Positions 7,621 through 32,554 of a stretch of DNA of 41,009 nt are shown piece by piece. This DNA comes from Chiloscyllium plagiosum. Taxonomy: Eukaryota. The stretch spans positions 1,664,487-1,705,495 of the forward strand of contig NC_057752.1 in assembly GCF_004010195.1 (NCBI RefSeq). Direction: 5' to 3'. The position numbers were made by a program, and so were the translations under genes. Positions within the stretch are counted from its first letter, which is position 1. The number at the start of each line of letters is the position of its first letter. Below the pieces are notes generated by a model that was given only the letters and a program-made list of their open reading frames with translations, made no database searches and was not told the DNA's origin.

Positions 7621-8674
7621 GGGAACAGGTGCCTTTTATGCAGACAGCTGGTAGACCAGATGACACCTCAACTCTTGAGATACCAACCGCAGCCCCCTTC
7701 CCCCAAACCTCCTCACCCATAGCTGGGAACTACAGAGCCTGATGTAGTGAGTGGGATCTCGCTGAGGATCTGTGCTTCATGTCATCTTTGCCACCTACTG
7801 GGGGCACAGCCAGCAGAAATGAGCTACTGTGCTGGAAACAACATTATCCTGTATTTCCAGTGATCTTTTCATGCTTGTTGGATTCCACAAGATGGGAGCT
7901 TGTAATCGCTGGGATCCAGTGATTTGTGTCACTTGTGGTCTCGCGTTCCAGTTGTATTTTTGCATTGAGAAGTAAACGTGGCAGATGGGTAGATCTGAAG
8001 GACTCGCTCAATCTCCATTCAGATCACTTGCGATCACCACTCATACTGAACAAGATTGGCATTGCACTGAGACCTGTGCCAAAGCCAGGGTTGGCAAATG
8101 GGACCAAGTCTTTCGAAGCAATCGCGCTGACGTTTGGAATCGGCCCGACCCAGATGTGTGGCTGAATTTCCAGCTCCTTGAGGTGCTGCCTGTTTTTAAG
8201 CATTGGCGAAAATACAGGAAGAATTGGCGCCAAATAAGCAGCATCACAGACAAATGTAGCTTGAAAACACAGCCTTATCTCATTCGCACCTTGCGGGGCT
8301 GATGCCTGTGTGTAGACAGTGACGCATTTCGCTTCCTTGCTTTCAACACGTGACTCTCAAAATGGTCGCTTTGCATTCCTGCCCCGCCTCATGTCTCAAA
8401 GCTTTTAACATACAGCCACGTTCTGCCCACTCCTGCAAGCAAATGTGGTGGCTTGTTTGCGCATGGGAAGATCCCACGGCACTGTCTTAAGGAGCAAAAA
8501 GACCTCCCTGCTCTTCCCAATCCAAGTGGCAAGGACTATCTTTATATCCATCGAAATGAGCTGAACAGGCGATAGTTTAGTGTCTGATCTGAGGGATAAG
8601 CATTCTGACAACACACGATATCAGAGCGTCCCTCAAAGATGCAGGCTGCATCCCTGGAGTGGGGGTGGCAGGAG

Positions 8675-8885
8675 GCTGTGGCATAACTGTAATGTCACCG
8701 GGCATGGGTTCGAATCCCACCATGGCAGATAGTATCTAGGATGAAAGGCCGGCCTCATGATCAGCATGTAACCATTGTCAACTGTTGTAAAAACCCATCT
8801 GTTCATGAGTGGCCCTGACGGAGGGGAACCTGCTGTCCTCACCCAGTCTGGTCAGGATATGACTCCAGACCCACAGAACTGCCAC
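8675..8885 (+). mobile_element. tRNA-headed SINE, partial (same family as 11570)
   Basis: gggttcgaatcccacc...gactccagacccacag. Confidence 0.6.
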
Positions 8886-9459
8886 AAATAAACACTTGCC
8901 TTTAGCCAGTCACATCCAAGACTCCTGGCTTGACGTGAACAGGAGTCTGCAGAATCGGCCACTCGGTCCTCTTCTCTATCTAGGGGATAGCAGAGACAGT
9001 CTGACAGAGCTGCCCCCTCCATGCACTGTCTGTCACCTTTGCAGAGAAAGCACTTTTCAATTGAGTGTTTCTTTTAACATTTGAAAGCTCCTGTTTCTGA
9101 ATGTGAACCAATGTTACAAATTATTTGAAGGATTCAACATGCAAATGTTTGCTCATGTTTACGAACCGATATTTGATACCACATTGTGTTCGGATTTGGG
9201 GAAAAACCGGACTGATGAATACAGTCAGGGACAGAACCTGTTTGTAACCCAGGGGCAGCCTGCAGTTATTCCTATTCATGTGTAATTTCATTTTTCAAAT
9301 AAAACATCACATTTTTCAAAGACAGTATACAAAAAAGCCAGTATTGCAGGAAGCATTGAGAAGCCGTTGATCTCAAAATCACGATTGACCAGGGTGTCTG
9401 GTTGGGTTCAGAGCTGGACGCTGACATATTTCCCATTGTCTGACCTTTGTCCTTCACAG

Positions 9460-9635
9460 TTCTTGGCTTTGTACTTGACGCCGATTCAGTTGAGGTGGAT
9501 GGCCAACGCAAAAGGCCTCCCCGGGTCTCCTTCCAGAGAAGGAGACCGAGTGACCCTGAGAACCAATACAGCGGAGAGGTAGTCCTGCGGAGGCAAACCG
9601 AATCCAGCTGTATCAACGTTACCATGAAACTACAG
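9460..9635 (+). CDS. ITGA6-like: Integrin alpha-6/7-like exon (thigh)
   Basis: ccttcacag| ... |gtacgg. Encodes (V)LGFVLDADSVEVDGQRKRPPRVSF...SGEVVLRRQTESSCINVTMKLQ. 176 nt, phase 1 to 0. Confidence 0.93.
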
Positions 9636-9709
9636 GTACGGCGAGAGGTCGCGGGCAGCTCGCACTCACAAACAGCCAAAAGGGAAAGGGATTCCAGGTT
9701 TCCCTCATA

Positions 9710-10477
9710 GTGGGTACACAGGGCACAGGGCTGTTTGTGTCTGATGGTGGGTACACAGGGTATGGTGCTGTTTGTGTGTGATGGTGGGTACACAGGGCGT
9801 GGTGCTGTTTGTGTCTGATGGTGGGTACACAGGGTATGGTGCTGTTTGTGTCTGATGGTGGGTACACAGGGTATGGTGCTGTTTGTGTCTGATGGTGGGT
9901 ACACAGGGCGTGGTGCTGTTTGTGTCTGATGGTGGGTACACAGGGCACGGTTCTGTTTGTGTCTGATGGTGGGTACACAGGGCATGGTGCAGTTTGTGTC
10001 TGATGGTGGGTACACAGGGCATGGTGCTGTTTGTGTCAGATGGTGGGTACACAGGGCACGGTTCTGTTTGTGTCTGATGGTGGGTACACAGGGCACAGTT
10101 CTGTTTGTGTCTGATGGTGGGTACACAGGGCATGGTGCTGTTTGTGTATGATGGTGGGTACACAGGGCGTGGAGCTGTTTGTGTCTGATGGTGGGTACAC
10201 AGGGCACGGTGCAGTTTGTGTCTGATGGTGGGTACACAAGGCGTGGAGCTGTTTGTGTCTGATGGTGGGTACACAGGGCGCGGTGCTGTTTGTGTCTGAT
10301 GGTGGGTACACAGGGCATGGTGCTGTTTGTGTATGATGGTGGGTACACAGGGCGTGGTGCTGATTGTGTCTGATGGTGGGTACACAGGGCGTGGTGCTGA
10401 TTGTGTCTGATGGTGGGTACACAGGGCGCGATGCTGATTGTGTCTGATGGTGGGTACACAGGGCGTGATGCTGATTG
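9710..10477. repeat. 37-bp minisatellite, about 21 copies
   Basis: Unit tgatggtgggtacacagggc(a/g)tggtgctgtttgtgtc. tgggtacaca recurs from 9711 to 10451, exactly 20 x 37. Confidence 0.97.
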
Positions 10478-10496
10478 CCGCTGCTTTGTTTGACAG

Positions 10497-10646
10497 GAGA
10501 ACCTGCGGGATAAACTGCGGCCCATCCCGGTGACATTGACCTACGTGATCAAGGAGGTGAAGCGCAAAAAGAAGCAGGTGGAGAGGCAGCTGACTCACCT
10601 GATGCCTGTCTTAAATGCTCAGGACTCAAACGTACACAGAGAAGAG
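10497..10646 (+). CDS. ITGA6-like: Integrin alpha-6/7-like exon (thigh)
   Basis: tttgacag| ... |gtaagc. Encodes ENLRDKLRPIPVTLTYVIKEVKRKKKQVERQLTHLMPVLNAQDSNVHREE; RDKLRPIP matches ITGA6. 150 nt, phase 0. Confidence 0.95.
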
Positions 10647-11032
10647 GTAAGCGTGGCCAGTTCCTCCCCGCAGTTTCTCACGTGGCCAGGAATAAGTTGG
10701 AAAGTCACTGCGCAGTCAGAAGTCAGTGAGTCACATTCACCGGTTTTGCCTGCGCCGCACTTGGGCCGATTTTGGCGCCAGTGGTTAATGAGGGGAATGT
10801 TTGTGTTCTCTACCTTGCTCATAATTGGGCTTTTGACCAATCAGACAACTGGCCTCTGTGTGGAATGGGAGACTTGAGTTTTTTTTTTCTTTTTTTTCTT
10901 TTTTCTTCCCCCACACTACAACCTAAGTGTGGTAGTGCTTATTTTTTTGTCACCCCTTTTTTTTTTTTCTCCACACTCCCCTTTTTTCTTTTTAACCCCC
11001 ACGCTACCACCTAAGTGAGTTTTCTCGTCAGA

Positions 11033-11165
11033 AGTCACATGACACCAGGTTATCGTCAAACCGATTTGTTTGGAATCACTCGCTTTCAGAGTGCTGCTCC
11101 CTTCATCAGGTGACGGTTTCTTCCATCTTTGACCAGTCCACTCCAACCCCAGCCCCTCCACATTA
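11033..11165 (-). mobile_element. Penelope-like relic of a second family with degenerate hammerhead
   Basis: Minus strand 11113-11076 reads tcac-ctgatga-a-gggagcagcactct-gaaa-gcga-gtga. Flank is related to 14445-14545 and 28128-28283. Confidence 0.6.
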
Positions 11166-11239
11166 TCCGTTTTCTCTCACCTTTTCTGACCCCCACGCAT
11201 CCTAACTCATTTTCCAGCCGACAACGCCCTTTTCAAGTC

Positions 11240-11530
11240 CGGTGCCTGTTGTGATGTTGGAAACACAGCTGCCTGTGCGCACACAGCAAGATCCCACAAA
11301 CAGCATTGAGAGAATGAGCTGAGAATGTTTTGTTTGGGGATAATGTTGAGGGATGACCAGACACTTGGGAGAATTAGTCTACTCCTCTGTGAAAACTACC
11401 ACCAGATCTTTTCCTGAGAGGGCACACTCTGTTAAACATCTTGTCCAAAGGACAGTTCCTCGAACAGTTCCGCACTGCCTTCATTCTGCACAGGGACAAT
11501 CGGCTTTGACTTTTGTGCTGTGCAGTGGGT
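11240..11530 (-). mobile_element. Deu-SINE-like relic
   Basis: gcacacagcaagatcccacaaacagca...cctgagagggca...ttaaacatct...aaaggacag. Confidence 0.55.
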
Positions 11531-11569
11531 CGGGGGGGGCTTCACTCCCTGTTATGGAAACTGTGACAT

Positions 11570-11940
11570 CGAGGTGTTGTCACTGGATGACTAATCTCGA
11601 GGTCCACCCTCATGCTCTAGGACATGGGTTCAAATCCCACCACAGCAGTTGGTCGAGTTTTTTCAATTCACGTCGTAAATGTGGGATTGAAAGCCAGTTT
11701 CCGTGACGTTGACCATGACAGTGTTCAATTGATTGTTGCCCTAGTGTGCTTCAGGGAAGGAAATCTGCCGTCCTTCCCTGGTCTGGGCCTACATGTGACT
11801 CCAGACCCACAGCCGTGGGGTTGACTCCTCAATGCCCACTGAATTGGCAGGGCAAGCCGTTGAGTTCAAGGGGCAGTTAGGGATGGGCAACAAACGCTGG
11901 TCTTGCCAGCGATGCCCACATCCCATGGAAGAATAATGAA
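11570..11940 (+). mobile_element. tRNA-headed SINE sharing the L2-like tail
   Basis: B box gggttcaaatccc, core ggaaggaaatctgccgtcctt...gactccagacccacagc, tail ggcagttagggatgggcaacaaa. Confidence 0.7.
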
Positions 11941-12045
11941 GCCATTTGCTGACTTGGAAACCACAGCCCACCAGCTGAGCAGCTGTTTAAAAAGCAACCA
12001 ATTGAATTGTACTTTACTGACAGGTCTCCTGTTGCTTGTTCTCAG

Positions 12046-12158
12046 GTGAATTTTCTAAGGGAGGGTTGTGGCCCGGATAAGATTTGTCAGAGTAACTTAC
12101 AGATGAAGTATAACTTTTGCACCAGACTTGATGAGGATGTATTCCAGCCCTTGTCAAA
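12046..12158 (+). CDS. ITGA6-like: Integrin alpha-6/7-like exon (genu / calf-1 start)
   Basis: gttctcag| ... |gtacgt. Encodes VNFLREGCGPDKICQSNLQMKYNFCTRLDEDVFQPLS(K) with genu motif CGxDxxCxSNL. 113 nt, phase 0 to 2. Confidence 0.96.
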
Positions 12159-12344
12159 GTACGTATCAATCTCTTTATTCTGGGAGATATTCCATAGCGA
12201 TAGTGTTGTAAGGGACTTGTGCATAGCACACACCAGGTCACACAAGGGTTACAGCACAGAAGGAAGCCCTTCAGCCCATCGGGCAAGCACTGGCTCATTA
12301 CACCAGCATCATTAGTGAGTGCCAATCTCGAGCCTTCTCTTCCC

Positions 12345-12460
12345 TCTGTACTCTTACCCTAATGCACTTTGTATGGCTTGATCTACTGCACATAAAACAA
12401 AACATTTCACTGTATTGAGGTATATGTGACAATATACCTCAAAGCAAATCAAATCAAAAT
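12345..12460 (+). mobile_element. Non-LTR retroelement 3' tail (Rex/Babar-like)
   Basis: tttcactgta...tgtgacaata followed by a (aaatc)n microsatellite end. Confidence 0.4.
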
Positions 12461-12469
12461 ATTTCCCCC

Positions 12470-12960
12470 ATATCCCTGTACCCCATTTCTATCCCGATAA
12501 CCATCCAATGCCCCTCTTGAATGCCTCAATGGAATCTGCCTCCCCCACATTCCCAGGCAGTACATTCCAGACTCTAACTACTCGCTGGGGGAGAAAGGTT
12601 TTCCTCACCTCCCCCTCACTTCATCCCTTTCAATCTCTGTCCCTCTCATTCTTGTCCCTTTTCCATGTGGGAACAGTTTGTCCCGATCTACTCTGTCCAC
12701 CCCCCTCCCCCCATGATGTTGGAACCCTCTCTCAGATCTCCCTCTCAGCCTCCTTCTCCCCAAGGAGAACAGTCCCAATGTCTTCAATCTCTCCTCCTCA
12801 CTGAAGTTTCTCATCTCTGGAACCATTCTGGTANNNNNNNNNNNNNNNNNNNNNNNNNNNNNNNNNNNNNNNNNNNNNNNNNNNNNNNNNNNNNNNCCAA
12901 CTAAAGTGCATCACCTCACACTTCACTGCATTGAACCTCATCTGTCACCTCTCCACCCAC
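12470..12960 (-). mobile_element. CR1-clade LINE fragment spanning an N gap
   Basis: Minus frame MRNFSEEERLKTLGLFSLGRRRLRG...VDRDKLFP. Confidence 0.78.
12834..12896. other. Assembly gap (63 N)
   Basis: Run of N. Confidence 0.99.
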
Positions 12961-13294
12961 ATCCTGTTGACATGACACTTGCCTACGTCACAATGTCCCT
13001 CTTCAGACACTGCCACTGCAATAGAGTGCAGCATCCCTGGTGACTAGGACCTGCTCCATGCCCATCTCAGAAGCATCACAGAAATGTTACAGTGCACAAG
13101 GAGGCCATTCAGCCCCATGTACTTGCCCCCAGTTCTGTTCTCTGGTGCCAGTCTCCTGCGTTTTCCCCTACCCCTGCACCATTTCGGAAGCATGCTGACT
13201 GTCCTCTGAAATGTTCATGTTGCGATGGAGGAGTGTACTTTGTCCAGAGCACTGTTTCTGAAGGAAGGTTGATTGCACATGTCCATCTTTGCAG

Positions 13295-13484
13295 AGATGA
13301 GCAAGGACAGCAGGTATTTTATCTCAGTGACCAGAAGGACATTGCCTTGGAGATTACCGTCACTAACCTGCCGTCGGACATGGCAAACCCAATGAAAGAC
13401 GGTGATGATGCTCACGAGGCAGTCCTGATTGCGAACTTCCCAGACACTCTCTTCCACTCTGCCTTCCGAACATCTCCAAAACAG
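13295..13484 (+). CDS. ITGA6-like: Integrin alpha-6/7-like exon (calf-1)
   Basis: ctttgcag| ... |gtacca. Encodes DEQGQQVFYLSDQKDIALEITVTNLPSDMANPMKDGDDAHEAVLIANFPDTLFHSAFRTSPKQ. 190 nt, phase 2 to 0. Confidence 0.96.
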
Positions 13485-13674
13485 GTACCAGCACCTGACG
13501 CTTTCGGAGCGATTACAAAAACCATTCGTGCTTTTTTTATTCACTGGAATCATTTGGAGTGGGAGGTCAAGGAGGTCAAATTTAGCAGCTTATGTGTATC
13601 GCTATGGCGACACAACAGAGGTGAGTGGCAAGTCAACTCTCACTGGCCAATGTGTTTGTGTCTTGCCTTCCCAG

Positions 13675-13758
13675 GACAGCAGTCTGGTCTGTGTTGCCAA
13701 TGCCAATGGATCCCAGGCCGAGTGTGAGCTTGGAAACCCAATGAAGAGGAATGCTCAG
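13675..13758 (+). CDS. ITGA6-like: Integrin alpha-6/7-like exon (calf-1)
   Basis: ccttcccag| ... |gtatgc. Encodes DSSLVCVANANGSQAECELGNPMKRNAQ with CELGNP motif. 84 nt, phase 0. Confidence 0.96.
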
Positions 13759-14041
13759 GTATGCACTTGTTTTCTGTGGATGGGCGTAAGCCACGTGACC
13801 TTCACCACATACTCGGCACAGCGGGTCCATCCAGTCAGCAGAATGCAAACTGGCCATTTGGCCCAAAACGTCCCCTCTGGTGTCTCTGCTGCATAACGCC
13901 AGGCTTCTAATATCCCATCGACACATGTCTATCTAGTCAGGGCATCAGCAGAGAGAGGCGAGGACTCTGAAAGCACTCCAGTTCAGTCTTGTTTGTTCTT
14001 GTCACAGAGGGAGCCAGTTTCTCATTCTAAAACAAAAGACG

Positions 14042-14688
14042 CTTCTGGTCTCCTTCCTATCAGAAAGATGTTGTGAAACTTGAAAGGGTTCAGAAAAGAT
14101 TTACAAGGATGTTGCCAGGGTTGGAGGGTTTGAGCTACAGGGAGAGACTGAACAGCCTGGGGCTGTTCTCCCTGGAGCGTCGGAATCTGAGGGGTGACCT
14201 TATAAAGGTTTACAAAATTATGAGGGGCATGGATAGGGTAAATAGACAAAGTCTTTTCCCTGGGGTGGGGGAGTCCAGAACTAGAGGGCATAGGTTTAGG
14301 GTGAGAGGGGAAAAATATAAAAGAGACCTAAGGGGCAACTTTTTCCTGCAGAGGGTGGTGCGTGTATGGAATGAGCTGCCAGAGGATGTGGCGGAGGCTG
14401 GTACAATTGTGACATTTAAAAGGCATCTGGATGGGTATATAAATAAAGTTAAAAATCACACAACACCAGGTTATAGTCCAACAGGTTTAATTGGAAGCAC
14501 TAGCTTTCGGAGCTCCCCAGTTCAACACCGGCATCTCCGAATCATGGTATATGAATAGGAAGGGTTTGGAGGGATATGGGCTGGGTGCTGGCAGGTGGGA
14601 CTGGATTGGGTTGGGATATCTGGTCGGCATGGACGGGTTGGACCGAAGGGTCTGTTTCTGTGCTGTACATCTCTGTGACTGTATGACA
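14042..14688 (+). mobile_element. HER1/CR1 LINE, 5'-truncated, relatively young
   Basis: LERVQKRFTRMLPGLEGLSYRERL...RGDLI.VYKIM...RTRGH...VWNELP plus 3' UTR. Closely similar to 32605-33230, 36340-36850 and 40645-41009. Confidence 0.92.
14445..14545. mobile_element. Penelope-like short insertion nested in HER1/CR1
   Basis: Interrupts the LINE compared with the intact copy near 33110. TSD ggtatat(a/g)aat at 14434-14444 and 14546-14556. Confidence 0.75.
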
Positions 14689-14778
14689 TGCTGAGTAGTT
14701 GTGCTGAGAATGCAGAGTTCTTGCTGTCGCTGTTCAGCGAGGTATGGGTGTGCTGACTCTGTGTACTTTGTTTGATAG

Positions 14779-14858
14779 GTCACCTTTTACTTGATCTTAA
14801 GCACTTCTAGAATCGCCATTGAAACAAGAACTTTACCGATTGTACTTCAGCTATCAAC
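14779..14858 (+). CDS. ITGA6-like: Integrin alpha-6/7-like exon (calf-1)
   Basis: tttgatag| ... |gtgagt. Encodes VTFYLILSTSRIAIETRTLPIVLQLS(T). 80 nt, phase 0 to 2. Not in the ORF track. Confidence 0.94.
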
Positions 14859-14940
14859 GTGAGTGCTGTCTGGGGCAGAATCACTTCTGACAAATGTGAA
14901 TTTCGTTTCTGTCCGTGTTGTGGATGACTTTCAATGTGGA

Positions 14941-14969
14941 TGTGTGTGTGTGTGAGAGAGAGAGAGAGA
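14941..14969. repeat. Compound (TG)n(AG)n microsatellite
   Basis: Direct inspection. Confidence 0.9.
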
Positions 14970-15824
14970 CAGCTCTGACCTGTCCTGAGTCTAGTCTAAC
15001 CCTGAAATCTTGTAACTCAGCCCCACCACCATCTCACTCAGCCGCTGCACCGTCTCTTCACTCACAGTCTTGGATCACGGAAGACTGAAGGTTGTCCGCT
15101 CTGAAACCTCTCTCTCCTAAGGGCTGCTTCCAGGTCTCTCCCTGATCACTAACGGAGGCTCTATCAGACTGTTAGAGACATCATTGACCCCAGGGAGATC
15201 TTTCAACCCCATGCCCTCACCATCAGTGGAACCATCTATTTCCTTATTGCCTTGGTAATATCCCTGGACTCTGACCCTCTCTCAGCTTGTCTGCTGCTGA
15301 AGCCCTCGCTGATGCCTCTGTTCATTCTCTATTCAAACACACACCTGGCTGATCTGCCATATTTTACCTCCTGTAAAACAGCCTGTCGTTACCTGCTTTC
15401 TGTCTCTCTATCTCTCTCTCCCTTTATTGAATAAAATTTGTATTCCCTGATGTCTTTTTCGTTCACACGTTGTACACATGAGCAAGTTGCACCCTAGGGA
15501 GTTCACTGTTTGGGATTTTTGGCATGGTTCTGAGACACCATGAACCATTTCACTTGTCCTCTCTCCAGGCACTACCTAATGTGCTGGGCCTTTCCAGTAT
15601 TTACATCCCTCTCGAGTGCTGTCGCGGCTATGGCACAGCAGCTGTCAGTTTTCTCTGCGAGGTTACCTCACCAAACAAGATGGCCTCTGATTTCCCCCCC
15701 CCTCCACCCCGACCTCCCAGCATTCTGTCTCCACTCAGTCCTTCTCAGTGACTGAGATCAAGAACCGGGCAGTAGAGGGACATTAAAGCAAATTCTCACC
15801 TCTCCCTGGCCACCCTGCTACATT

Positions 15825-16820
15825 GAAATAGGAGCAAGAGTAGGCCATTTGGCCCTTCAAGCCTGTCCCACCATTCAATATGATCATGGCTGATCATCCA
15901 ACTCATCCCCCTGTTCCTGCTTTAGCCCCCTAACTTTTGATCCCTTTAGCCTCCTAAGAAGTAAATCTACTGGAAAACATTCAATGTTTTGTCCTCAACC
16001 ACTTTCTGTGACAGAGAATTCCACAGGCTCCCCACTCTCTGGGTGAAGCCATTTAGATTAGATTACTTACAGTGTGGAAACAGGCCCTTCGGCCCAACAA
16101 GTCCACACCGCCCCGCCGAAGCGCAACCCACCCATACCTCTACATTTACCCCTTACCTAACACTACGGGCAATTTAGCATGGCCAATTCACCTGACCTGC
16201 ACATCTTTTGGATTGTGGGAGGAAACTGGAGCACCCGGAGGTAACCCACGCAGACACGGGGAGAATGTGCAAACTCCACACAGTCAGTCGCCTGAGGCGG
16301 GAATTGAACCCGGGTCTCTGGCGCTGTGAGGCAGCAGTGCTAACCACTGTGCCACCGTTTCTCCCCATCTCAGTCTGAAATGGCCTACCCAGTATCCTCA
16401 GACTGTGACCCCTGGTTCTGGACTTCCTGGTCATCAGGAACATCCTTCCTGCGTTTAGCCTGTCTTGCCCTGTTAGAATTTTAGAGGTTTCTATGTGATT
16501 CCCCCTCATTCTTCTAAGCTGCAGTGAATATAGTCCTGACTGATCCGGTCTCTGTTCATATGTCAGTCCTGCCACCCCAGGATTCCGTCTGGTAAACCTT
16601 CACTGTACTCCGTCCCTCGCCAGAACATCCTTCCGCAGGTAAGGAGACCCAGATTGCATACAGTACTCCAGGGTATGGTCTCACTCTGTCCAATAGCAGC
16701 AAGACACCCCTGCTCCTGTACTCAAATCCTCTCACTATGAAGGCCATTGCACCATTTACCTTCTTCACTGCCTGCTGTACCTGCAATATCTAATTTCAGT
16801 GACTGGTGTACAAGGACACC
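15825..16820 (-). mobile_element. CR1-clade LINE fragment interrupted by an HE1 SINE
   Basis: QVQQAVKKVNG.MAFI.RGFEYRS and GLYSL..RRMRG..IETSKILTG...SRTRGHSLRI. Confidence 0.85.
16054..16358 (-). mobile_element. HE1-type SINE nested in a CR1 relic
   Basis: Reverse complement of the 1631 family with (tctaa)n tail. CR1 continues on both sides. Confidence 0.88.
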
Positions 16821-17079
16821 TCCCCTTTTGCTACCCACAACATCTCACAGTAAGATACATTGCCAGTAAAACCTCCAGAGACCCCTTGAGCAAATAGGAT
16901 GACCACCCTGAGAGCATGAACGATGATGGATGCAGTACGGACTGCTGACAGCAGAGGGTACTGTTGAGCTTGGTTCCACTTTGCCTACTTGTACAAGGGC
17001 GCCATCTGCTGGGTCTTCTCACCAAACTAGCTTCAGGGCACAAGAATTTCGCTTCCATCTTTGCTTGGTCAATTGGTGA

Positions 17080-17742
17080 AAATAGTACAGCACAGGAGCA
17101 GGCCCATTGGCCCAGGATGTTGTGCCGAACATGATGCCAAATTAAACGAATCCCTTCTGCTTGTCGTTGGTCCATATCCCTCCATTCCTTGCATATTCAT
17201 GTGCTTATCTCAAAGCCCCTTAAATGCCCCTATCGCTTCTGCCTCCACCACCAACCCTAGGCGTGCGTTCCACACTCCTACCAACCTCTGCAGAAAATAC
17301 TTGTCCCTCACATCTCCTTTGGACTTTCCCCCTCTGACCTGAAATGCATGCCCTCTGGTATTAAGCATTTCAACTCTGGGGAGAACAATTCTGACTGTCA
17401 GCCCTATCAATGCATCTCATAAGTTTATCGACACTTCTACCAAGTCTCCCCTCAGCCTCCGTCGCTCTAGAGAAAATAGCCTGAGTTTTTCTAGCCTCTC
17501 CTTATGATGAAGGGCTTTTGCCCGAAACGTCGACTTTCCTGCTCCTCGGATGCTGCCTGACCTGCTGTGCTTTTCCAGCGCCACTCTAATCTAGACTCTG
17601 ATCTCCAGCATCTGCAGTCCTCACTTTTGCCTTATAGTTCAGACCGTCTAATCCAGGCAGCATCCTGGGAAACCTCCTCAGCAACCCTCTCCAAAACCTC
17701 CACGTCCTTCCTGTAGTGTGGCGATCCGAATTGAACACAACA
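17080..17742 (-). mobile_element. CR1-clade LINE fragment interrupted by a Penelope-like insert
   Basis: CVQFGSPHYRKDVEVLERV and NTRGHAFQVRGGKSKGDVR...VGVWNA. Confidence 0.85.
17506..17629 (+). mobile_element. Penelope-like fragment inserted in a CR1 relic
   Basis: tgatga-a-gggcttttgccc-gaaacgtc plus shared tail. 6-bp TSD ccttat at 17500-17505 and 17630-17635. Confidence 0.75.
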
Positions 17743-17784
17743 TTGAGGGTTTCTTTTCAAATTTAGCAGGTGACAGTTTAAAAA

Positions 17785-17958
17785 GCCAAAGAGCTGCAGA
17801 TGCTGAAAAGCAGAAACAAAAACAGAGGTTGTTGAACACACTCAGCAAAGCAGGCAGCAGCTGTGGAGAGAAAGCAAAGCTAACCTTTCTGAAGCAGGGA
17901 CCTGAAACGCGAACTCTGCTTTCTCTCCACAATTGCTGCCAGGCCTGCTGAGATTCTC
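17785..17958. mobile_element. Older palindromic Penelope-like relic
   Basis: ctcagca...gcagcagctgtggagagaaagca versus tgctttctctccacaattgctgcc...tgctgag inverted arms. Same family as 23259-23812 and 35755-35850. Confidence 0.6.
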
Positions 17959-18140
17959 GCTGCTGGAAAAGCGCAGCAGGTCAGGCAGCATCCAAGGAGC
18001 AGGAGAATCGACGTTTCGGGCATAAGCCCTTCTTCAGGAAATGTCGATTCTCCTGTTCCCTGGATGCTGCCTGACCTGCTGTACTTTTCCAGCAAAACAT
18101 TTTCAGCTCTGATCTCCAGCATCTGCAGTCCTCACTTTCT
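17959..18140. mobile_element. Short palindromic Penelope-like element with hammerhead motif
   Basis: Inverted arms (ctggaaaagcgcagcaggtcaggcagcatcc versus ggatgctgcctgacctgctgtacttttccag). 15-bp TSD cctgctgagattctc at 17944-17958 and 18141-18155. Confidence 0.8.
18007..18040 (-). ncRNA. Minimal hammerhead ribozyme motif
   Basis: Minus strand reads UUC CUGAAGA A GGGC uuau GCCC GAAA CG UC GAU. Core intact, stem I only about 2 bp. Confidence 0.65.
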
Positions 18141-18221
18141 CCTGCTGAGATTCTCTGTCAATTTAATCAAGATGATTATGATAAGAATCACGAAATGTGG
18201 CTTTTTGCTCCTTCCTAACAG

Positions 18222-18299
18222 CATCAGCGAACAGACCGGTTTGGACCCAGTCACAGCTACTGCTCACGTTATACTGGTACTGCCAGTCTCTCTCGTTCC
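18222..18299 (+). CDS. ITGA6-like: Integrin alpha-6/7-like exon (end of calf-1)
   Basis: ttcctaacag| ... |gtaagt. Encodes (T)ISEQTGLDPVTATAHVILVLPVSLV(P). 78 nt, phase 2 to 2. Confidence 0.92.
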
Positions 18300-19078
18300 G
18301 TAAGTGTATCCTCCATCTCTGGCAGAGCTTAGCTTCCTACGTCGCGAAACTGTCACCTGTTCGAAGAGCGAGTGTCAAAATTCAAAGCACTGTGGGTTAG
18401 GCACTGACCTATGACCTAACCGAGACCGATGGGAATGAAAATCTGCTGTGTCTGCCGGCTCTAAGTGTTGTCCATCCACTGAATTTGAGCCGCCCACCAC
18501 AGCACCTTGTCAAACTGCTCCCATGCAAAAGAACTGCATAAAAGAGAAGTTTCATCAGTACCTTTCAGGGTGTCAGTAATGCATTTTACAACCAGTGAAG
18601 TACTTTCGACTTGTTTTTTACAGGTAAACGCAGGAGCCGGTTTTGACGTAAAGATAATGTAGTCCCAGTCTCCTGCCTGTGAGAGATTGCTGTGTGTAAA
18701 TGCACTGTGGAAGTTGGTGGGGAGCAACAGAAATAATGGTGTCTCATTGATGCGATCACCAATTTCTGTCTGTTCAAATTTGCCCTGAATTATAAGCAGA
18801 GCCTTGTACTCAGCAATAATTGGCGAATGTCCAGTGTTTTAGGATTTGTGCAACCACCAAATTGGGGAGCCGATTGTCCCTGCAACCTGGATTGCACCTC
18901 TTTGGCCCAGTGCGAGCTGGCATTGCCAACGCCAAGTACCTCCAAGCAGAGTGCTCCTTTGTTCCACAGGGATGATTCCCGGCTTCCAACCACCATCCTT
19001 GGAGTTGTTCATTTATAATCAGTGAGTTGAGTAATTGGTGAATGTTATTTCATGCTGGTTATTTCCCGAATTTTACAG

Positions 19079-19181
19079 AAATGTTGAACCTCAAAATGTG
19101 TTTTTTGGAGGTGACATAATGGGAGAAAGTGCCATGAGGAAAGAGGAGGATTTGGGGAGTCGTGTTGATTATAAACTAACG
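19079..19181 (+). CDS. ITGA6-like: Integrin alpha-6/7-like exon (calf-2 start); last visible exon, GC donor
   Basis: ttttacag| ... |gcaagt. Encodes NVEPQNVFFGGDIMGESAMRKEEDLGSRVDYKLT, similar to ITGA6 PSQVYFGGTVVGEQAMKSEDEVGS. 103 nt, phase 2 to 0. Not in the ORF track. Confidence 0.9.
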
Positions 19182-19255: not shown

Positions 19256-19755
19256 NNNNNNNNNNNNNNNNNNNNNNNNNNNNNNNNNNNNNNNNNNNNN
19301 NNNNNNNNNNNNNNNNNNNNNNNNNNNNNNNNNNNNNNNNNNNNNNNNNNNNNNNNNNNNNNNNNNNNNNNNNNNNNNNNNNNNNNNNNNNNNNNNNNNN
19401 NNNNNNNNNNNNNNNNNNNNNNNNNNNNNNNNNNNNNNNNNNNNNNNNNNNNNNNNNNNNNNNNNNNNNNNNNNNNNNNNNNNNNNNNNNNNNNNNNNNN
19501 NNNNNNNNNNNNNNNNNNNNNNNNNNNNNNNNNNNNNNNNNNNNNNNNNNNNNNNNNNNNNNNNNNNNNNNNNNNNNNNNNNNNNNNNNNNNNNNNNNNN
19601 NNNNNNNNNNNNNNNNNNNNNNNNNNNNNNNNNNNNNNNNNNNNNNNNNNNNNNNNNNNNNNNNNNNNNNNNNNNNNNNNNNNNNNNNNNNNNNNNNNNN
19701 NNNNNNNNNNNNNNNNNNNNNNNNNNNNNNNNNNNNNNNNNNNNNNNNNNNNNNN
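19256..19755. other. Assembly gap (exactly 500 N, probably a placeholder)
   Basis: Run of N with a round length. Confidence 0.99.
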
Positions 19756-19879
19756 CTCGATCATATCTGTGCATGGTACCATTTTCTGAGATGAATGATA
19801 AGATGGAGGAAAATACACCAATTGTGGAGAATTTTCATTAGTATAGCGCCTGCTAGGCCAAAGTGTTATGTTTGAGGCT

Positions 19880-24697: not shown

Positions 24698-25814
24698 TAC
24701 TTCTAAGACATCCAAAACTGGTGGACACAGCAAGGAACAGGAGGACCATGATGGATAACAGTTTAATCTCATAAGTTTCCTTCGTCTGAGACATTAGTGC
24801 CTTAACAGTTGCCTGAAAGAGAGGCATTTTTGTTTGGCTTTTGTCAGCTGGTCAGATTTATTCAAGAACCTGGCTTCGTACAATAAGCAATTTCTTTTTC
24901 GCTGCTGTTTTGCACTGCCGCTATCCTTTTGCGCATAATGACATCTGATGAAGGAAGAAAGTATAACGCTGCAAAACACGAGAGATCGGCTCGCATTGAA
25001 TCTGACAGGAGCCCATCTTTTCTCCCCCCCTTTGCGCTTCATTAGGGTTTGATCGCTTTTAAATAGTGCTCGCTTCTTTTCGTCAAAATGCATGCTTCTT
25101 TTAAAGAGAATCACATTTGAAAGTGTGGGGGATTCTCGTGGAAGTACAGGTGGTCAAGCAGCAAAAGAATGCTCCTGGTCACAAATACCATAAGTAGCCA
25201 AGTCAAGAAAATCTTGGGTTTGAGCACAAGGTTGAAAAAGGATTCTGGGTTAACTTCGGATAAAGGCAACCCCAGGGGCCCTTGCGACAAACAAAAGACA
25301 CGCAGCAATATGTGAGAAGGTTGGCTCACAGTCATGGGATGACTGACAAGGTTGGAAATGTTTATAGAGATCATGGCAGCAGTACTCGATCAGAAATAGG
25401 AACGACAAGCATGGGGAGAGACGTTCATCGCGGGCAATTGTTTTGTTACTGTTGGTTGCTTTAAAGCTGAACCCAGTGGTGGCAGGTTAGCTCAGCAGGC
25501 AATGACACCATGAGAAAGGTCACTTAGTCTTCCCCCTAGAAATGGTTGGATGAGCGAGAAATCTGTGCAAAGCGTTGATTTACAATCCCGGACAGACACA
25601 GCCTGAGACATTTCTGACCAGCCTGTCTTCTTATTGGTGCTCAGGAGTCCATCTGAAAATGGCTGCCATTCCACTCCCCACCAATGCTGTTTCTGTCTCA
25701 AAAGATTTTTTCTGGTAATGGCACCTTTCATTTAAGTCTACAGTCAGGTTTGGAGATTAGATACTTCCACTGCCAGATTAAAATGGGCAACAGTTAAACT
25801 ATCACAAGATATCC

Positions 25815-26060
25815 AAGCGGGAGTCGGCCATTCAGCCCCTCAGGCCTGCCCTTCCATCCTCTGCCACGGCTGATCCACCCCAGGCCTCAACTCCTCTTTC
25901 ATGCCAGCCCCTCATAGCCCTCAATTCCTCAGTATTTCCAACATCTATCTACTTCCTTTTTAAAGCCTTTTCAGCAATCTAGCCTCCACAACTCTCTGAG
26001 GTAGAGGATGCCAAATAGTTACTACCTTCAGAGAAGAAATTCCTTCACATTTCAGTCTTA
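25815..26060 (-). mobile_element. CR1-clade LINE 3' tail (old)
   Basis: ggccattcagccc...gagaagaaattcct, reverse complement of the CR1 3' end. Confidence 0.6.
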
Positions 26061-27324
26061 GATTGAGTGTCGACTGAGTTCAGTGGATAAGCAAAGCAGA
26101 GGTTGATAGGGAAGATGGAACAACATCAACTTGCACTTACATAGCAACTTTAATGCAATGAAAATGGCCCACGGTGCTTCACAGGTGCATAAGATGGCAA
26201 AAAGCGAGCTAGCGTGAAGAAATCTTAGCGCAGATGTCAAAAAAGCCTTTTTAAAAATGTTTGTTTTAATGAGAAGTCTCTTTAAATGAAGTGGAGAAAA
26301 TCAGGGAGGGAATTTGAGAGCTTAGGCAGCTGAGGCCAGTGGTGGAGGGATTAAACTGTAGAGATGACACAGAGAACACTGACCTCTGCTCTTGAACTGT
26401 CTTCTCGGGGTCAGCCATCTTGGATGTGCACTTGAATTAATAGCCTTTGTTACTTTTGTTTGAAAAAGGTTTTCCCCCCCCTCCCCCCAACTTGACAATT
26501 ATTTGGTAACAGCACGTATTTTGCCTTTCTTGTCCTTGCACTGTTTTCTTGCAATTCAGATTGGCCAAGAAGATTTCAAGCCAAGCTGTGTTTGGTAACT
26601 CCAGCTTGTGTATCGACGCACCAGCTGCTTTGAAATGCAAAACCTGTTCATAAAAGCCGCACTTTGGAGTCACCAAAATATTGTAGCTGCATGCATGAAC
26701 AAAAAAATTCATCCACTGATGGAAACTGTGGTCTCAAGAGCACAAGGTTAACATTTCACTGAACAGCTCCATCCATATTTGACAAGAATTCACCCCTGCT
26801 CCCCACCCCCATCTCCCATTCTCCTGAAGGTGCTGACTCATGCTTGGGTTGGCTGCTGTCTAGCCCAAGTGGCCACTCTTAACAGCTCATACACAATAAT
26901 AAGTCCCCAGTAGGGTACTCGCCCATGGTGATGCCACAGCAAAGATCCATTGCCCCCATGCCCAACAGCCACAGACACACAACTTGCAGCGGGGAGGGGG
27001 GAATGAGCAGCTGAACTCCAATTTACTTCCTTGTTTTCTTGCAAAGAGATAGAGGCACATTTCATCCCTTATTGGCAGCAAGAGTGAGATCAGCAAACGT
27101 GGCACCGATTGAAGCTGGCATGATGCCACATTTCGCAGCTGATCCACCAGGGCGTCACTCTCGAACCAGGATGTTGAACCATTTTATTATTGCCTTTTTA
27201 AAATGACAGAGTTATTCATTCCAGTCGGTTGGAATACCTGCTGCTGCCAACAATTAAGTGCTTAAAATGATCGGACTCAACAACTTTAGGTGGTCCTGAC
27301 ATTGTATGTCTATCAAAGATGTAT

Positions 27325-27475
27325 CAAAATCCTGAACTTCTCTCCCTAATGGCATTGTGGGGTACATACGACTTGTGGACCACAGTGCCTCAAGGAGGCA
27401 GCTCACCTCCACCTTCTCCAGGGGCAATTAGGGATGGGCAATGCATGTTTGCCCAGCCTATATCCCATGAATGAG
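27325..27475 (+). mobile_element. L2-like LINE 3' tail
   Basis: gcagctcacc...ccttctccaggggcaattagggatgggcaa, same tail as 2690-2735. Confidence 0.55.
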
Positions 27476-28127
27476 AGGTTTGACTAGATTAACTAGGAAG
27501 CTCAGAGTTCTGTGCTCTCCAAAGATTGCAACACCAAGTACAATTTCTAATAGTCTCAGTGAGCAAGACACCCTAGTACCAGCTGAGTGAAGTGAACTTA
27601 ACATTTTATTCCTTAAATTGAAAAGTTCCTTTCACTTAAAGCCCCTATGTGTCAAGTATAAGTCACTGTCACCCAATTGGAGAGGCAAGTTAGATAACCG
27701 CTCTTCACAGGAATGAATTCCTTATCGGGTGCTGATATTCGGGTAATTTCCCCACAAAGAGACAAGGCGATAAATTCAGGCAAAGACGTTGCAGGAATAT
27801 TGTCTCACAATTACAACTTTTCACAGTAACAAAGCATTCATTCAATCAAGAGTCCAGAGTCGAGACTAAAAAATGCACTCACAAACTTATAAGTACAAAC
27901 AGTGTTTCACTCCAACATTATATGTTGGATGATACCCAAGTATATTATATTAAACTCTCTGCCCCGTGTACCTGCATCAGTGGCACAAGGTCAAGGCAGT
28001 TTTATTTTCCTGAGCCACTTGACCTTCTGCTTCTAGGCATCCACAATATCCTGCTTTTTGATCCAAAGAATCAGCGTTTCACGCTGTTCAGTCTCCAGGC
28101 TTCAGCGATAAAGCCTGCTTTGAACCT

Positions 28128-28283
28128 GGACAAAGTCAAAAATCACACAACACCCAGTTAAAGTCCAACAGGTTTATTTCAAATAATTGTTTTTTGAAAT
28201 AGTGAATTCAAATAAACCTGTTGAACTATAACCCAGTGTCATGTGAGTTTTGGCTTTGTCCAACACTGGTACCTCCACATCTT
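28128..28283. mobile_element. Palindromic Penelope-like relic (second family)
   Basis: ggacaaagtcaaaaatcaca...aacaggtttatt versus aataaacctgtt...gagttttggctttgtcc inverted arms. Ribozyme centre deleted. Confidence 0.65.
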
Positions 28284-28425
28284 TGGAACCAGACGTGCTG
28301 CCCTAATGAGGAGAGTGGGGTACCTGATCAACATTGACCCAGATACTTAGCGAATTTTGAGACGTTTTGTAGCTCAGGTTGAGGTTTTGGATGTAGGTTT
28401 GCTCGCTGAGCTGGAAAGTTCATTT

Positions 28426-28465
28426 CCAGACGTTTCGTTACCCTACTAGGTAACATCTTCAGTGG
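28426..28465 (-). ncRNA. Minimal type I hammerhead ribozyme motif (intact core)
   Basis: Minus strand reads CCA CUGAAGA U GUUACC uaguag GGUAAC GAAA CG UC UGG: 3-bp stem I, 6-bp stem II, palindromic ACGU in place of stem III, GUC site. Confidence 0.8.
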
Positions 28466-28802
28466 GCCTCAGACGAAGCAATGCTGAAAATTCCTGCTTT
28501 CGATTTATATGTTTGGGTTTCTTTGGGTTAGTGATATCATTTCCTGTGATGATGTTATTTCCTGTGGTGAAGTCACTTCCTGCTCTTTTTCTCAGGGGTG
28601 GTAGATGGGGTCTAATGTAATTCCAACCGGAACTCTATCAACAAACACGAGTTAGACTCCATCTACCACCCCCTGAGAAAAAGAACAGGAAATGACTTCA
28701 CCACAGGAAATAACATCACCACAGGAAATGACATCACCAACCCAAAGAAACCCAAACATATAAATCAAAAGAAGGAATTTCCAGCATTGCTTCATCTGAG
28801 GC

Positions 28803-28842
28803 CCACTGAAGATGTTACCTAGTAGGGTGAAGAAACGTCTGG
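28803..28842 (+). ncRNA. Minimal hammerhead motif, stem II damaged
   Basis: CCA CUGAAGA U GUUACC uaguag GGUGAA GAAA CG UC UGG. The closing G-C pair of stem II is lost (C to A). Confidence 0.6.
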
Positions 28843-30603
28843 AAATGAACCTTCCAGCTCAGCGAGCAAACCTACATCCAGGACCCAGATACTTGCTGGT
28901 GACAAGATCACAAAGAGCATTCTCAAAAGGCCTGGGAGGAAAGCTCACTGCTGCTCATCCCCCTCTGTTTGGAGATTGGTGTGTAGAGAGGGAAAGGGAT
29001 CAAACCAGGGACTATTTAGAACTGACATGGGAGAATTTTTAGGTTAAGAGAAAATTGGTGGTGTTACCATGGGAGCTGCATCATGCAGTGACAGGATGCA
29101 GCTTGTCAAATAGGAACTAGTCAATAATTTAGGATCATAACCTTTTTATTTACCTAGCGTTGCACGAAGTCTGAAATATTCAGATGCAAACCACAATATC
29201 AGAATATAAAATCTGAGTCTTGGTGTAAGACTAGACAAAAGGTCCATTTGGAGTTTAACAAAAGAGATGTTTCCTTGTGTTATAAAAGTTATAGCAGCTC
29301 AGTAATTTCAGACAGGACTGGGAATGAAGAGCATCTCTCAGTCTCACCAATCAGTGTCCAGTTACAACTATTCCAAAATCAAGGGACCGTGGTTCGAACA
29401 ACGCACAACAGTGTCCAAAATGTTACACTGTGACTGCTTCACAGAATGTGGGTAACGGGAGACATTTAAGTAAATGGTAAAAGTAATGAAATGTCTGTTT
29501 AAATTTTCTTTTAAAAACCCTACGGTCTCACAGCTTTAAAAGGATTCTCAAAAGACCTCTTTTTTGATCATTTCGTTTATGATCAATTGGGTTTTAGCAT
29601 TGAATGCCTTCATTCAATCAGTATCCACCTACAGCCTTTTTGGTTGCTTGCCTCCAGATCATCAATGAGAAACAAACCAGTTACACGCAAGGGATTAGTC
29701 ACGGGAAGGTTAAGGCATTGTAGTCCTTCTGATCTCTCCATATCTGGCTGCGCTTCCTTTTCCAGCTAGTCCTTTCATCCCCATCACCTCTGTCTGTCAT
29801 CCTAACCCTTTCTTCATTCCCTCCTTACTTCCCATCTCTTGAAACTAACTGCATTATGATACACTTGTAATCCAGAAAATATACCTGTTTAAATAGAAAG
29901 TGAATTGTGTTTTAACCAGATCCAATTTATCAATAACCCTTCACGCACAGTCCCATTTTTCAGGGTTTGTTTTAAATACCACTGGATCTCATTGTATTGT
30001 GCATCTATTGCCAAGGTAAAACATTAGTTGAGCCAGAGTGGGCTACTATTGATTGTCTAAGGGAGTCCAAGGTGAATTTTCCAGATTTATTTTCCCTGCT
30101 AACTGCTCTGGACTCTTATCTGGCTCTCTGCCCCTCCCCCCAACCCCCAAACTCTGAGGGGACCACTTACTGCCAGTTCAGGCAAGGAGTGTATAGAGTG
30201 GATTAATAAGGCACTGTAGCTGTATGGGGCAGAGGCAGGTTTTTTTCCCCTGTCTGTCAATGAATAAAAGTCAGCAGCTCCCTCCCCCTCAGCTTGAAGT
30301 GGGATCCCTTTGTGACGAAACGTTGCAGGGAGAGAGCCGAATGAACGATGTACCTTTGCAATGCGTGTGTGGGCTATCACTCAAACATCAACTCCATGTG
30401 CTGACAGTCACCTTTGGAAACACATTTTCAGCCTGGAGGAACAATTGATTTTAAACTCCAGAAAGAATAAGTCGGGACGCTGGCATTACTTTGATAGGGT
30501 GGAGCAGACATCTTCCTTTCCAATATGTGGTACATTTTTAGTTTCAAGTGTTCCTTCGCTGTGCCAGCCCCTCAAACAAGCCCTCCATGAAGCCCACCAC
30601 GTT

Positions 30604-32315: not shown

Positions 32316-32399
32316 TCATTGGGCGGAGCCATTGCCAAAAATCGGGGTACCGTTCAGAGCAGGGTGAAAGCCAAGAAAGCCATTGGAATCTTCTTTCAT
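32316..32399 (-). CDS. AHR: Probable terminal coding exon of the AHR gene
   Basis: Pyrimidine tract ttttgttcttacctttc followed by aaag| acceptor. Phase 0 matches the upstream exon. Encodes MKEDSNGFLGFHPALNGTPIFGNGSAQ*; the similarity to fish AHR2 C-termini is recalled, not aligned. The AAG acceptor is suboptimal. Confidence 0.6.
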   Translation of the reverse strand: MKEDSNGFLGFHPALNGTPIFGNGSAQ

Positions 32400-32554
32400 C
32401 TTTGAAAGGTAAGAACAAAATTGGACAAGCATCATCAGAGGCCCTGGCTTCCAACCTCCTCGCTTCACCCAACCCAACTCTTTTGAAGGTGACTCAGACA
32501 GAACTGTCATGGAACATCTTATTCAAATGTCTTCACCCAGAGAGTGAGGAGCCT

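What the first reader, a model, noticed from the sequence alone, without database searches (positions are those of the whole stretch)
28349..28881. Fold-back Penelope-like insertion with an intact minimal hammerhead ribozyme, downstream of AHR and in the same sense
Seen: a 533-bp element with two inverted arms of about 228 bp, a 39-bp one-sided tail and a perfect 13-bp TSD (gacccagatactt). The minus strand at 28465-28426 reads CCA-CUGAAGA-U-GUUACC(loop)GGUAAC-GAAA-CG-UC-UGG. The mirror copy on + has lost the stem II closing pair. Known: Penelope-like elements carry minimal type I hammerheads whose palindromic helix III is thought to work through dimers. Inference: it lies about 3.9 kb past the proposed AHR stop, so a long 3' UTR or read-through transcript would contain a ribozyme core and a long dsRNA hairpin, which could affect cleavage/termination, ADAR editing or small-RNA production.
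Basis: partly seen in the sequence, partly recalled or inferred. Interest (0 to 1): 0.72.

Follow-up and report, generated by a model that had tools for sequence, protein, structure and literature searches.

The report
Ordinary Penelope fold-back past shark AHR
This mirror-image insertion is a typical truncated copy of a very common Penelope-type jumping gene in a shark genome; it lies about 250 bases beyond a poly(A) site that likely ends most AHR messages, and in any RNA that reads on through it the ribozyme motif is predicted to be buried in a long hairpin, so it is likely a passenger, although a smaller neighbouring hairpin shows signs of likely RNA editing.

Summary
The anatomy is confirmed: 533 bp, two ~228-bp arms 94% alike, a 39-bp one-sided tail, an exact 13-bp TSD and a minimal hammerhead on the minus strand. 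It is a 5'-truncated Penelope/Poseidon-type element in the published layout. The family is very large (1,369 exact matches to a relaxed core pattern). In 70 sampled loci, 30 are head-to-head pairs, 27 with one long and one short end; the modal TSD is 13 bp. The intact hammerhead is no sign of selection: 6 of 47 unselected arms are equally intact. Cleavage of AHR RNA is unlikely: 12 poly(T) reads place a minus-strand poly(A) site at about 29128, before the element, and read-through RNA would bury the motif in a duplex (65 kcal/mol to refold). Partly right: some minus-strand RNA lies beyond the element, and a second small hairpin (28127-28262) shows four clustered A-to-G changes, likely ADAR editing (no matched DNA). 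The strict long/short pairing suggests priming from both cut strands. The scan has noted this layout, this mechanism and similar UTR hairpins many times on other shark DNA.

The parts
28336..28348 (.). left target-site duplication, 13 nt
   Evidence: exact direct repeat; 13 nt is the family mode, 9 of 28 long/short pairs including this one
28349..28387 (-). one-sided tail: element positions +70 to +108 counted from the ORF's ATG
   Evidence: family copies end at two discrete places, about +69 and +108
28388..28615 (-). long-end arm (element sense on the minus strand): end of the GIY-YIG ORF, pseudo-LTR, hammerhead, start of the next ORF unit
   Evidence: 95% to the family majority sequence; frame reads as the family's C-terminus up to its stop
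28426..28465 (-). minimal type I hammerhead motif; predicted cut between 28429 and 28428; helix I 3 bp, stem II 6 bp, palindromic ACGU in place of helix III
   Evidence: 257 exact copies of this core and 1,369 of a relaxed core, reversed-pattern controls 0
28454..28456 (-). likely start codon of the element's ORF, formed by hammerhead A9, the unpaired U and G10.1; the previous unit's stop codon lies in loop II
   Evidence: open frame of 36 codons to the tail end and upstream frame ending in loop II; the anole element's ORF also starts at stem II (PMC11167929); that this ATG is the start is inferred
28616..28651 (+). hairpin loop: about 4 junction bases plus the unpaired 5' extension of the right arm
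   Evidence: arms reach -160 and -195, gap 4
28652..28881 (+). short-end arm (element sense on +), ends at +69, no tail
   Evidence: 94% to the family majority sequence
28803..28842 (+). mirror hammerhead motif with the G10.1-C11.1 pair lost (A at 28831)
28882..28894 (.). right target-site duplication
29128..29150 (-). poly(A) signal AATAAA (29150-29145) and used poly(A) site at about 29128, likely the main AHR 3' end
   Evidence: 12 reads with poly(T) loose ends at 29128 in run X17; no genomic A-run at the site; the link to AHR is inferred
32316..32408 (-). last coding exon and stop codon of an AHR-like gene
   Evidence: 29 of 30 residues match the C-terminus of P0001
28127..28281 (.). second, smaller fold-back of another repeat family (66-nt arms, extension on the right, imperfect 9-10 nt flanking duplication), with candidate A-to-I sites at 28158, 28174, 28227, 28229 on the minus strand
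27605..27610 (-). candidate distal poly(A) signal
   Evidence: AATAAA; low minus-strand read depth at 27488-28063; its use is not shown

Best explanation
The element is a 5'-truncated insertion of a very abundant Penelope/Poseidon-type retrotransposon, made of two head-to-head copies of the element's 3' end, which likely arose when both cut target strands primed reverse transcription, and it is likely a neutral passenger just beyond the poly(A) site that likely ends most AHR messages. Shown: family identity, two discrete end points (+108 and +69 from the ATG), strict one-long/one-short pairing, 13-bp modal TSD, neutral decay of the hammerhead, and the poly(A) site at about 29128. Inferred: a staggered cut about 13 nt apart; one nick primes at the distal RT start site and the other at the proximal one, on RNA of the same source; the two truncated cDNAs are joined at their inner ends. 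The hammerhead is part of the pseudo-LTR and served the parent element. Predicted: in the minority of minus-strand RNA that passes the poly(A) site, the antisense arm is made first and pairs with the ribozyme arm, so the motif cannot fold and the RNA is an ADAR substrate rather than a self-cleaving one.
For: Family: longer copies give a GIY-YIG-type C-terminal frame. Its relatives carry RVT_1 (5 of 8 hits), and an RT-bearing homolog aligns through its YVDD motif to copy L073 at 76%. There were 6,210 and 109,162 first-look candidates by DNA and by protein (not copy numbers). Layout: 30 of 70 loci sampled by core pattern are head-to-head; 27 of 30 are long+short, none long+long or short+short; solo ends are 24 long, 20 short, 1 other. 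TSD of 9 nt or more in 24 of 31 pairs against 1 of 120 mismatched-flank controls. Arms of one insertion are more alike than arms of different insertions in 23 of 25 pairs, with 87 shared variants against 28 expected. Literature: inverted copy, 30-40-bp tail and TSD are typical (PMC3846280, PMC8557442); the anole enzyme cuts and extends both strands and starts at two sites that bound the tail (PMC11167929). Neutral decay: 6 of 47 unselected arms are intact and the CpG bases of the motif are only 62-77% conserved. Host RNA: poly(A) site before the element; stem II pairing probability 0.0 and a 65.5 kcal/mol refolding cost in read-through RNA.
Against: Minus-strand RNA beyond the element exists in X17 (depth 1-2.6 against 6-7.6), and in X1 and X5 contig depth is similar on both sides (15 vs 19; 11 vs 9), so read-through may not be minor in all tissues (those two runs are only guessed to be RNA). 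The poly(A) call rests on 12 reads from about 2% of one run. In vitro the anole enzyme showed no strand difference in start-site use (PMC11167929), which does not by itself predict strict long/short pairing. Self-priming (PMC3846280) or endonuclease resolution of an intermediate (PMC8557442) could also give the asymmetry. Arm similarity could partly reflect gene conversion. Non-CpG core positions are slightly more conserved (0.969) than upstream background (0.949).
Confidence: 0.76

Rival explanations
1. A regulated long AHR 3' UTR isoform includes both fold-backs; ADAR edits them, and this tunes AHR output (stability, export or microRNA sites).
For: Four T>C (A-to-G on minus) sites cluster in the small hairpin: all 3 differences of X1 contig 2 (1,565 nt) and all 3 of X5 contig 13 (711 nt) lie there; X17 shows 2/2, 1/3, 0/4, 3/4. 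Paralogues have T at these sites in 20-22 of 21-22 hits and never C, and all four A's are paired. X1 contig 8 runs across the 29128 site into the element. The human AHR 3' UTR is edited by ADAR1, creating a miR-378 site (passages in PMC8268402 and PMC11331409 citing Nakano 2016).
Against: No matched DNA, so SNPs are not excluded, and two sites are shared between runs. Editing of repeat hairpins is common and is no sign of function (general knowledge). The main poly(A) site is upstream. X5 has no coverage at 29024-29215. No read could be tied to the large hairpin of this locus.
Confidence: 0.13
2. The minus-strand RNA left of the element starts inside the long arm's own pseudo-LTR promoter and reads out leftwards. 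It is not AHR RNA; it holds only one arm, so stem II of the hammerhead can form, and the small hairpin is edited in this RNA.
For: The long arm points left on the minus strand and keeps a TATA-like word about 50 nt before the ATG. Without the other arm stem II forms with probability 0.80-0.99. X5 coverage breaks between 29023 and 29294.
Against: Both arms carry a shared A>C change at -46, next to the TATA-like word. The mirror arm gives no plus-strand reads to the right of the element in X17. Helix I stays unformed (probability 0.001 or less) in this context. No start site is seen.
Confidence: 0.2
3. The intact hammerhead has been kept or co-opted to cleave or terminate AHR transcripts.
For: Core, stem II and palindrome are intact and in the AHR sense. 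Family-wide, one stem II pair tested keeps pairing in 1,365 of 1,369 matches, with C favoured opposite G (39 of 999 against 4 of 370, p=0.008), which fits selection on the fold in source elements.
Against: That selection acted on source elements; inserted copies decay neutrally and 6 of 47 are equally intact. Single minimal motifs showed no cleavage and dimers little (PMC4209133). The anole motif cleaves only with the element's protein, and no RNA-seq ends were found at its cut site (PMC11167929). No tandem partner lies in the window. The motif is buried in duplex on read-through. No pile-up of read ends was listed (table 6; few reads).
Confidence: 0.03
4. The palindrome arose by self-priming or fold-back of one cDNA, with the tail produced by endonuclease resolution, and not by two priming events.
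For: Proposed in PMC3846280 and PMC8557442 (passages). It explains why arms of one insertion share variants and why the tail is on one side only.
Against: The short end falls at a fixed element position (about +69) that is also the end of 20 of 45 solo copies. Either arm can be the longer at the centre, and many junctions carry extra or rearranged bases instead of a perfect hairpin tip. The anole enzyme primes from both strands at two sites (PMC11167929).
Confidence: 0.3

Closest known systems
Endonuclease-positive Penelope-like elements, typical insertion unit (PMC3846280, PMC8557442; passages read)
   Same: Inverted 5'-truncated copy, head-to-head, one-sided 30-40-bp tail, TSD, hammerhead in the pseudo-LTR.
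   Different: Here both halves are short stumps (267 and 261 nt). The strict one-long/one-short pairing (27 of 27 classifiable pairs) is quantified here; the passages read say only that the tail is often at one end.
Poseidon element of Anolis carolinensis, PAc (PMC11167929; main text and start of methods read)
   Same: ORF starts at stem II of the hammerhead; two end points bound the tail (here +69 and +108, there a start site 111-118 nt into the ORF); C-terminal GIY-YIG domain.
   Different: No activity shown here. PAc showed no strand bias of start sites in vitro, whereas genomic pairs here are strictly asymmetric.
Minimal hammerheads of metazoan PLEs (PMC4209133; results and discussion read)
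   Same: Type I core, unpaired base between 9 and 10.1, G10.1-C11.1 pair, long stem II, palindrome in place of helix III; opposite-strand pairs 100-700 bp apart were already reported.
   Different: Helix I is only 3 bp in this copy (4-5 bp described for Schistosoma); no tandem partner.
Non-LTR retrozymes (bioRxiv 10.64898/2026.07.22.740005; abstract and Results part 1 read)
   Same: PLE pseudo-LTR-derived, hammerhead-bearing, found in a chondrichthyan; exon-overlapping copies tend to lie in 3' UTRs.
   Different: Retrozymes are tandem arrays or their monomers; this is an inverted pair with ORF-derived sequence and a TSD.
ADAR1-edited human AHR 3' UTR (Nakano 2016, seen only as cited in PMC8268402 and PMC11331409)
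   Same: An AHR-family gene with editing-like changes downstream of its stop codon.
   Different: Different paralogue and lineage; here the edited hairpin lies beyond the main poly(A) site and no effect is shown.

Membership tests
EN+ Penelope-like element | RT domain followed by a C-terminal GIY-YIG endonuclease in family copies | tested here: met
   Longer copies give the VIYKIPC..YIGQT..H..H..EAWHS frame (motif reading is from my knowledge, Pfam gave no hit); homologs carry RVT_1; RT with YVDD aligns to copy L073. This copy holds only the last 55-66 codons.
EN+ Penelope-like element | pseudo-LTR with hammerhead motif and the first codons of the ORF | tested here: met
EN+ Penelope-like element | inverted truncated copy, one-sided 30-40-bp tail, TSD | tested here: met
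Penelope/Poseidon clade | [quoted passage not shown] | tested here: met
   no cysteine in the 67 residues before the endonuclease motif of the L037 frame; by inspection only
Penelope/Poseidon clade | placement in an RT phylogeny | not tested
   no tree built; no named reference set on hand
Minimal type I hammerhead | conserved core, G10.1-C11.1, stem II, palindromic 15.2-16.2 | tested here: met
   left arm passes all checks, right arm fails G10.1-C11.1
Minimal type I hammerhead | pair-preserving variation across copies | tested here: inconclusive
   one stem II pair tested: U-A 366, U-G 960, C-G 39, C-A 4, p=0.008; copies are related, other pairs not tested
Rfam hammerhead families | match to a covariance model | tested here: not met
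   no hammerhead family among 25 matches at E<=10
Active ribozyme | self-cleavage after GUC | not testable with these tools
   folding predicts burial in read-through RNA
Non-LTR retrozyme | head-to-tail tandem units with one hammerhead each | tested here: not met
   only two inverted arms in the window
ADAR-edited 3' UTR hairpin | A-to-G differences in RNA that are absent from matched DNA | tested here: inconclusive
   clustered A-to-G in the small neighbouring hairpin; no matched DNA; large hairpin masked by paralogous reads

The most novel reading that the evidence does not exclude
A long AHR 3' UTR isoform in this shark runs through two Penelope-type fold-backs, is ADAR-edited there, and is used to tune AHR levels, a retrotransposon-built counterpart of the edited human AHR 3' UTR; poly(A) choice at 29128 versus about 27590 would switch the dsRNA module in or out.
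Probability: 0.12. Interest if true: 0.6.

Novelty: new member of a known kind. Interest (0 to 1): 0.24.

Why it matters
As a locus it matters little: it is one of many such insertions and shows why an intact-looking hammerhead in a fold-back should not be read as a switch. Two by-products are useful. First, the strict long/short pairing of arm ends gives a sharp prediction for the existing in vitro Poseidon system, on the open question of how PLE inverted ends and tails form. Second, head-to-head PLE stumps are ready-made dsRNA hairpins and may be a major ADAR substrate class in sharks; the small neighbouring hairpin gives four candidate sites that one DNA/cDNA Sanger comparison can settle.

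Tried and rejected
Rfam scan: no hammerhead match, only hairpin-shaped microRNA models far below their thresholds. Pfam gave no family for the 211-aa frame, the AHR exon or the 39-aa arm frame. The run finder listed no holder that is on record as RNA. Run X18 laid 0 reads, so it is no test. Editing of the large hairpin: differences there are of mixed types and one restores the family base, so they come from paralogues; not testable. The 9:2 excess of G-U over A-C pairs in this copy's minus-strand hairpin was considered as a sign of selection and rejected: the family total is 204:164 and single pairs range from 12:2 to 4:9. The element as an intron of the plus-strand integrin gene: integrin exons map up to 19172, and the last ~250 residues were not found in the window, so this is not excluded, but X17 shows no plus-strand RNA in the unique flanks. 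Internal priming at 29128 was rejected because there is no A-run at the site. The AHR paralogue identity was not resolved (paper search found 0). Paper searches for a twin- or double-priming model of PLE inversions (3 papers, listing only, none on this by title or abstract), for PLE hairpin editing (4, listing only), for shark editing (listing only) and for this family in bamboo sharks (1, listing only) found no direct report; the library lacks most subscription papers.

Full report
Observation. The description holds. An exact 13-nt direct repeat flanks 533 bp. The arms 28388-28615 and 28652-28880 differ by 13 mismatches and one gap in 229 columns, and 39 nt at the left end have no partner. 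The minus-strand motif at 28465-28426 is as written, and the mirror copy has lost C11.1. The whole element folds at -431 kcal/mol, z -39.6. The 40-nt motif alone does not beat shuffles (z -1.2), and Rfam lists no hammerhead family here at E<=10, which fits a minimal motif without helix III.

Setting. The genome is 3.56 Gb. The large minus-strand exon at 38845-37364 matches AHR-like proteins of cartilaginous fishes (14 hits), best 91% to a Chiloscyllium protein. Eight exon matches run from the neighbouring stretches down to a last exon at 32408-32319, with the stop at 32318-32316. An integrin alpha gene runs towards it on the plus strand; its exons map up to 19172, and its last ~250 residues were not found in the window, which has N gaps.

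Identity. Longer copies of the arm translate to a GIY-YIG-type C-terminus (the motif reading is my own knowledge, Pfam gave no hit). Five of 8 longer homologs carry RVT_1, and one aligns through its YVDD motif to copy L073 at 76%. The linker has no Neptune-type cysteine motif, so Penelope/Poseidon is the likely clade; no tree was built. The family is very large: 257 exact matches to this core and 1,369 to a relaxed core, with 0 for reversed controls. The ORF's likely ATG is formed by A9, the unpaired U and G10.1 of the hammerhead, and the previous unit's stop lies in loop II. The anole Poseidon ORF also starts at stem II (PMC11167929).

Architecture across copies. I took the first 10 loci and 60 further stretches covering the next 64 listed matches (three doublets merged; one left out because already held as L005); 70 loci from 257 matches. 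Selection was for an intact core, not for layout. Ends fall at two places, about +69 and +108 from the ATG. Thirty of 70 loci are head-to-head pairs: 27 have one long and one short end, 3 have an atypical end, and none is long+long or short+short. Solo ends are 24 long, 20 short, 1 other. Independent choice of ends would give this with probability about 6e-9. A TSD of 9 nt or more is found in 24 of 31 pairs, this one included, against 1 of 120 controls; the median and mode are 13. Arms of one insertion are more alike than arms of different ones in 23 of 25 pairs, with 87 shared variants against 28 expected (this set includes loci). So this copy is typical in every respect. Inverted copy, tail and TSD are described as typical of the class (PMC3846280, PMC8557442; passages). 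The anole enzyme nicks and extends both strands and starts at two sites that bound the tail (PMC11167929; main text). I infer priming from both nicks, one at each site (about 60%); fold-back of one cDNA with endonuclease resolution remains a rival (about 30%). I reached this reading before consulting the scan's notes, which show 178 findings with these words and the same proposal on other shark DNA; they are not independent support.

The hammerhead. Among 47 arms not selected for the motif, 6 pass the same intactness test. The CpG bases inside the motif are only 62-77% conserved; non-CpG core bases are 0.969 against 0.949 upstream. That is neutral decay, and one intact arm of two is expected about one time in four. 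One stem II pair shows pair-preserving variation family-wide (U-A 366, U-G 960, C-G 39, C-A 4; p=0.008), which reflects source elements. Published tests found no cleavage by a single minimal motif and low cleavage by dimers (PMC4209133; results and discussion), and cleavage of the anole motif only with protein (PMC11167929). In read-through RNA the antisense arm comes first: stem II probability is 0.0 and forcing the hammerhead fold costs 65.5 kcal/mol. With the left arm alone stem II forms but the 3-bp helix I does not. Hairpin and ribozyme are therefore mutually exclusive.

Host RNA. One read-laying over 24800-30550 was obtained (4 runs, X18 gave 0 reads). In X17 (poly(A) single-cell raw reads, about 2% read, 87 laid), 12 reads have poly(T) loose ends at 29128, about 17 nt below AATAAA at 29150-29145, with no genomic A-run. 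Against a simple picture: X17 also has same-sense reads at 27488-28255 (depth 1-2.6 against 6-7.6), near another AATAAA at 27610. X1 and X5 (contigs, only guessed to be RNA) cover both sides at similar depth, and one X1 contig crosses 29128 into the element, while X5 has no coverage at 29024-29215. X1 contigs span both junctions, so that sample carries the insertion.

Editing signature. A second fold-back of another family lies at 28127-28262. Four T>C differences on plus (A-to-G on minus) cluster in it. They are all 3 differences of a 1,565-nt X1 contig and all 3 of a 711-nt X5 contig; X17 shows 2/2, 1/3, 0/4 and 3/4. Outside the two repeats there are 13 differences, 3 of them T>C (type p=0.015, density p=0.0008; the runs share two sites and are not fully independent). 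Paralogues have T at these sites and never C, and the four A's are paired. A-to-I editing is the best reading (about 80%), but there is no matched DNA. Whether this RNA comes from AHR read-through or from the element's own promoter is open. The large hairpin could not be assessed. Human AHR's 3' UTR is ADAR1-edited (passages in PMC8268402 and PMC11331409; the primary paper was not read), a parallel but no evidence of function here. The scan has noted similar shark UTR hairpins before.

Verdict. Real, a new member of a known kind, most likely neutral. The ribozyme-switch reading is unlikely (3%); a functional edited long isoform is possible (about 12%). Supplements of the cited papers were not read; those of the retrozyme preprint are closed and may list shark families. 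Interest 0.24.

Noticed in passing
window 28127-28281: Second, smaller fold-back of a different repeat family only about 55 bp from the main element's TSD, with an extension on one side, an imperfect 9-10-nt flanking duplication and four clustered A-to-G (minus strand) differences in RNA-like runs.
   Followed up: partly
window 28454-28456 (minus): The conserved unpaired base between hammerhead positions 9 and 10.1 is the U of the element's likely AUG, and the ORF's stop codon sits in loop II; coding needs may explain this conserved bulge in Poseidon-type motifs.
   Followed up: partly
window 170-19172 (plus): Integrin alpha gene converging on AHR; its calf-2, transmembrane and cytoplasmic exons were not found in the window and may lie in the N gap near 19260-19780.
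   Followed up: partly
L072:2589-3561: A head-to-head pair in which both arms stop at +41 and the flanks on both sides are themselves inverted copies, with no TSD found: possibly a later inversion or duplication.
   Followed up: no
L040, L056, L068, L105: Insertions whose inverted arm is little more than the tail itself (about +64-80 to +108), joined to a long body that ends at +69, resembling L1 twin priming on one template.
   Followed up: partly
L073:1381-3085 and L057:414-3109: Long fold-back insertions that keep the RT domain between their ends and are still bounded by a TSD-like repeat (14 and 11 nt).
   Followed up: partly
P0039, P0043: Predicted shark MAP3K7 and EYA3-like isoforms carry this element's C-terminal peptide, either exonisation or an annotation artefact.
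   Followed up: no
P0003: A 1,977-aa sawshark protein with AHR domains, about twice the usual length; possibly a fused gene model of tandem genes.
   Followed up: no
window 9275-10548 (minus): Long open frames made of an imperfect tandem repeat inside an integrin intron.
   Followed up: no
window 24800-27500: Runs X1 and X5 cover the stretch far beyond both candidate poly(A) sites at steady depth; strand and origin unknown.
   Followed up: no
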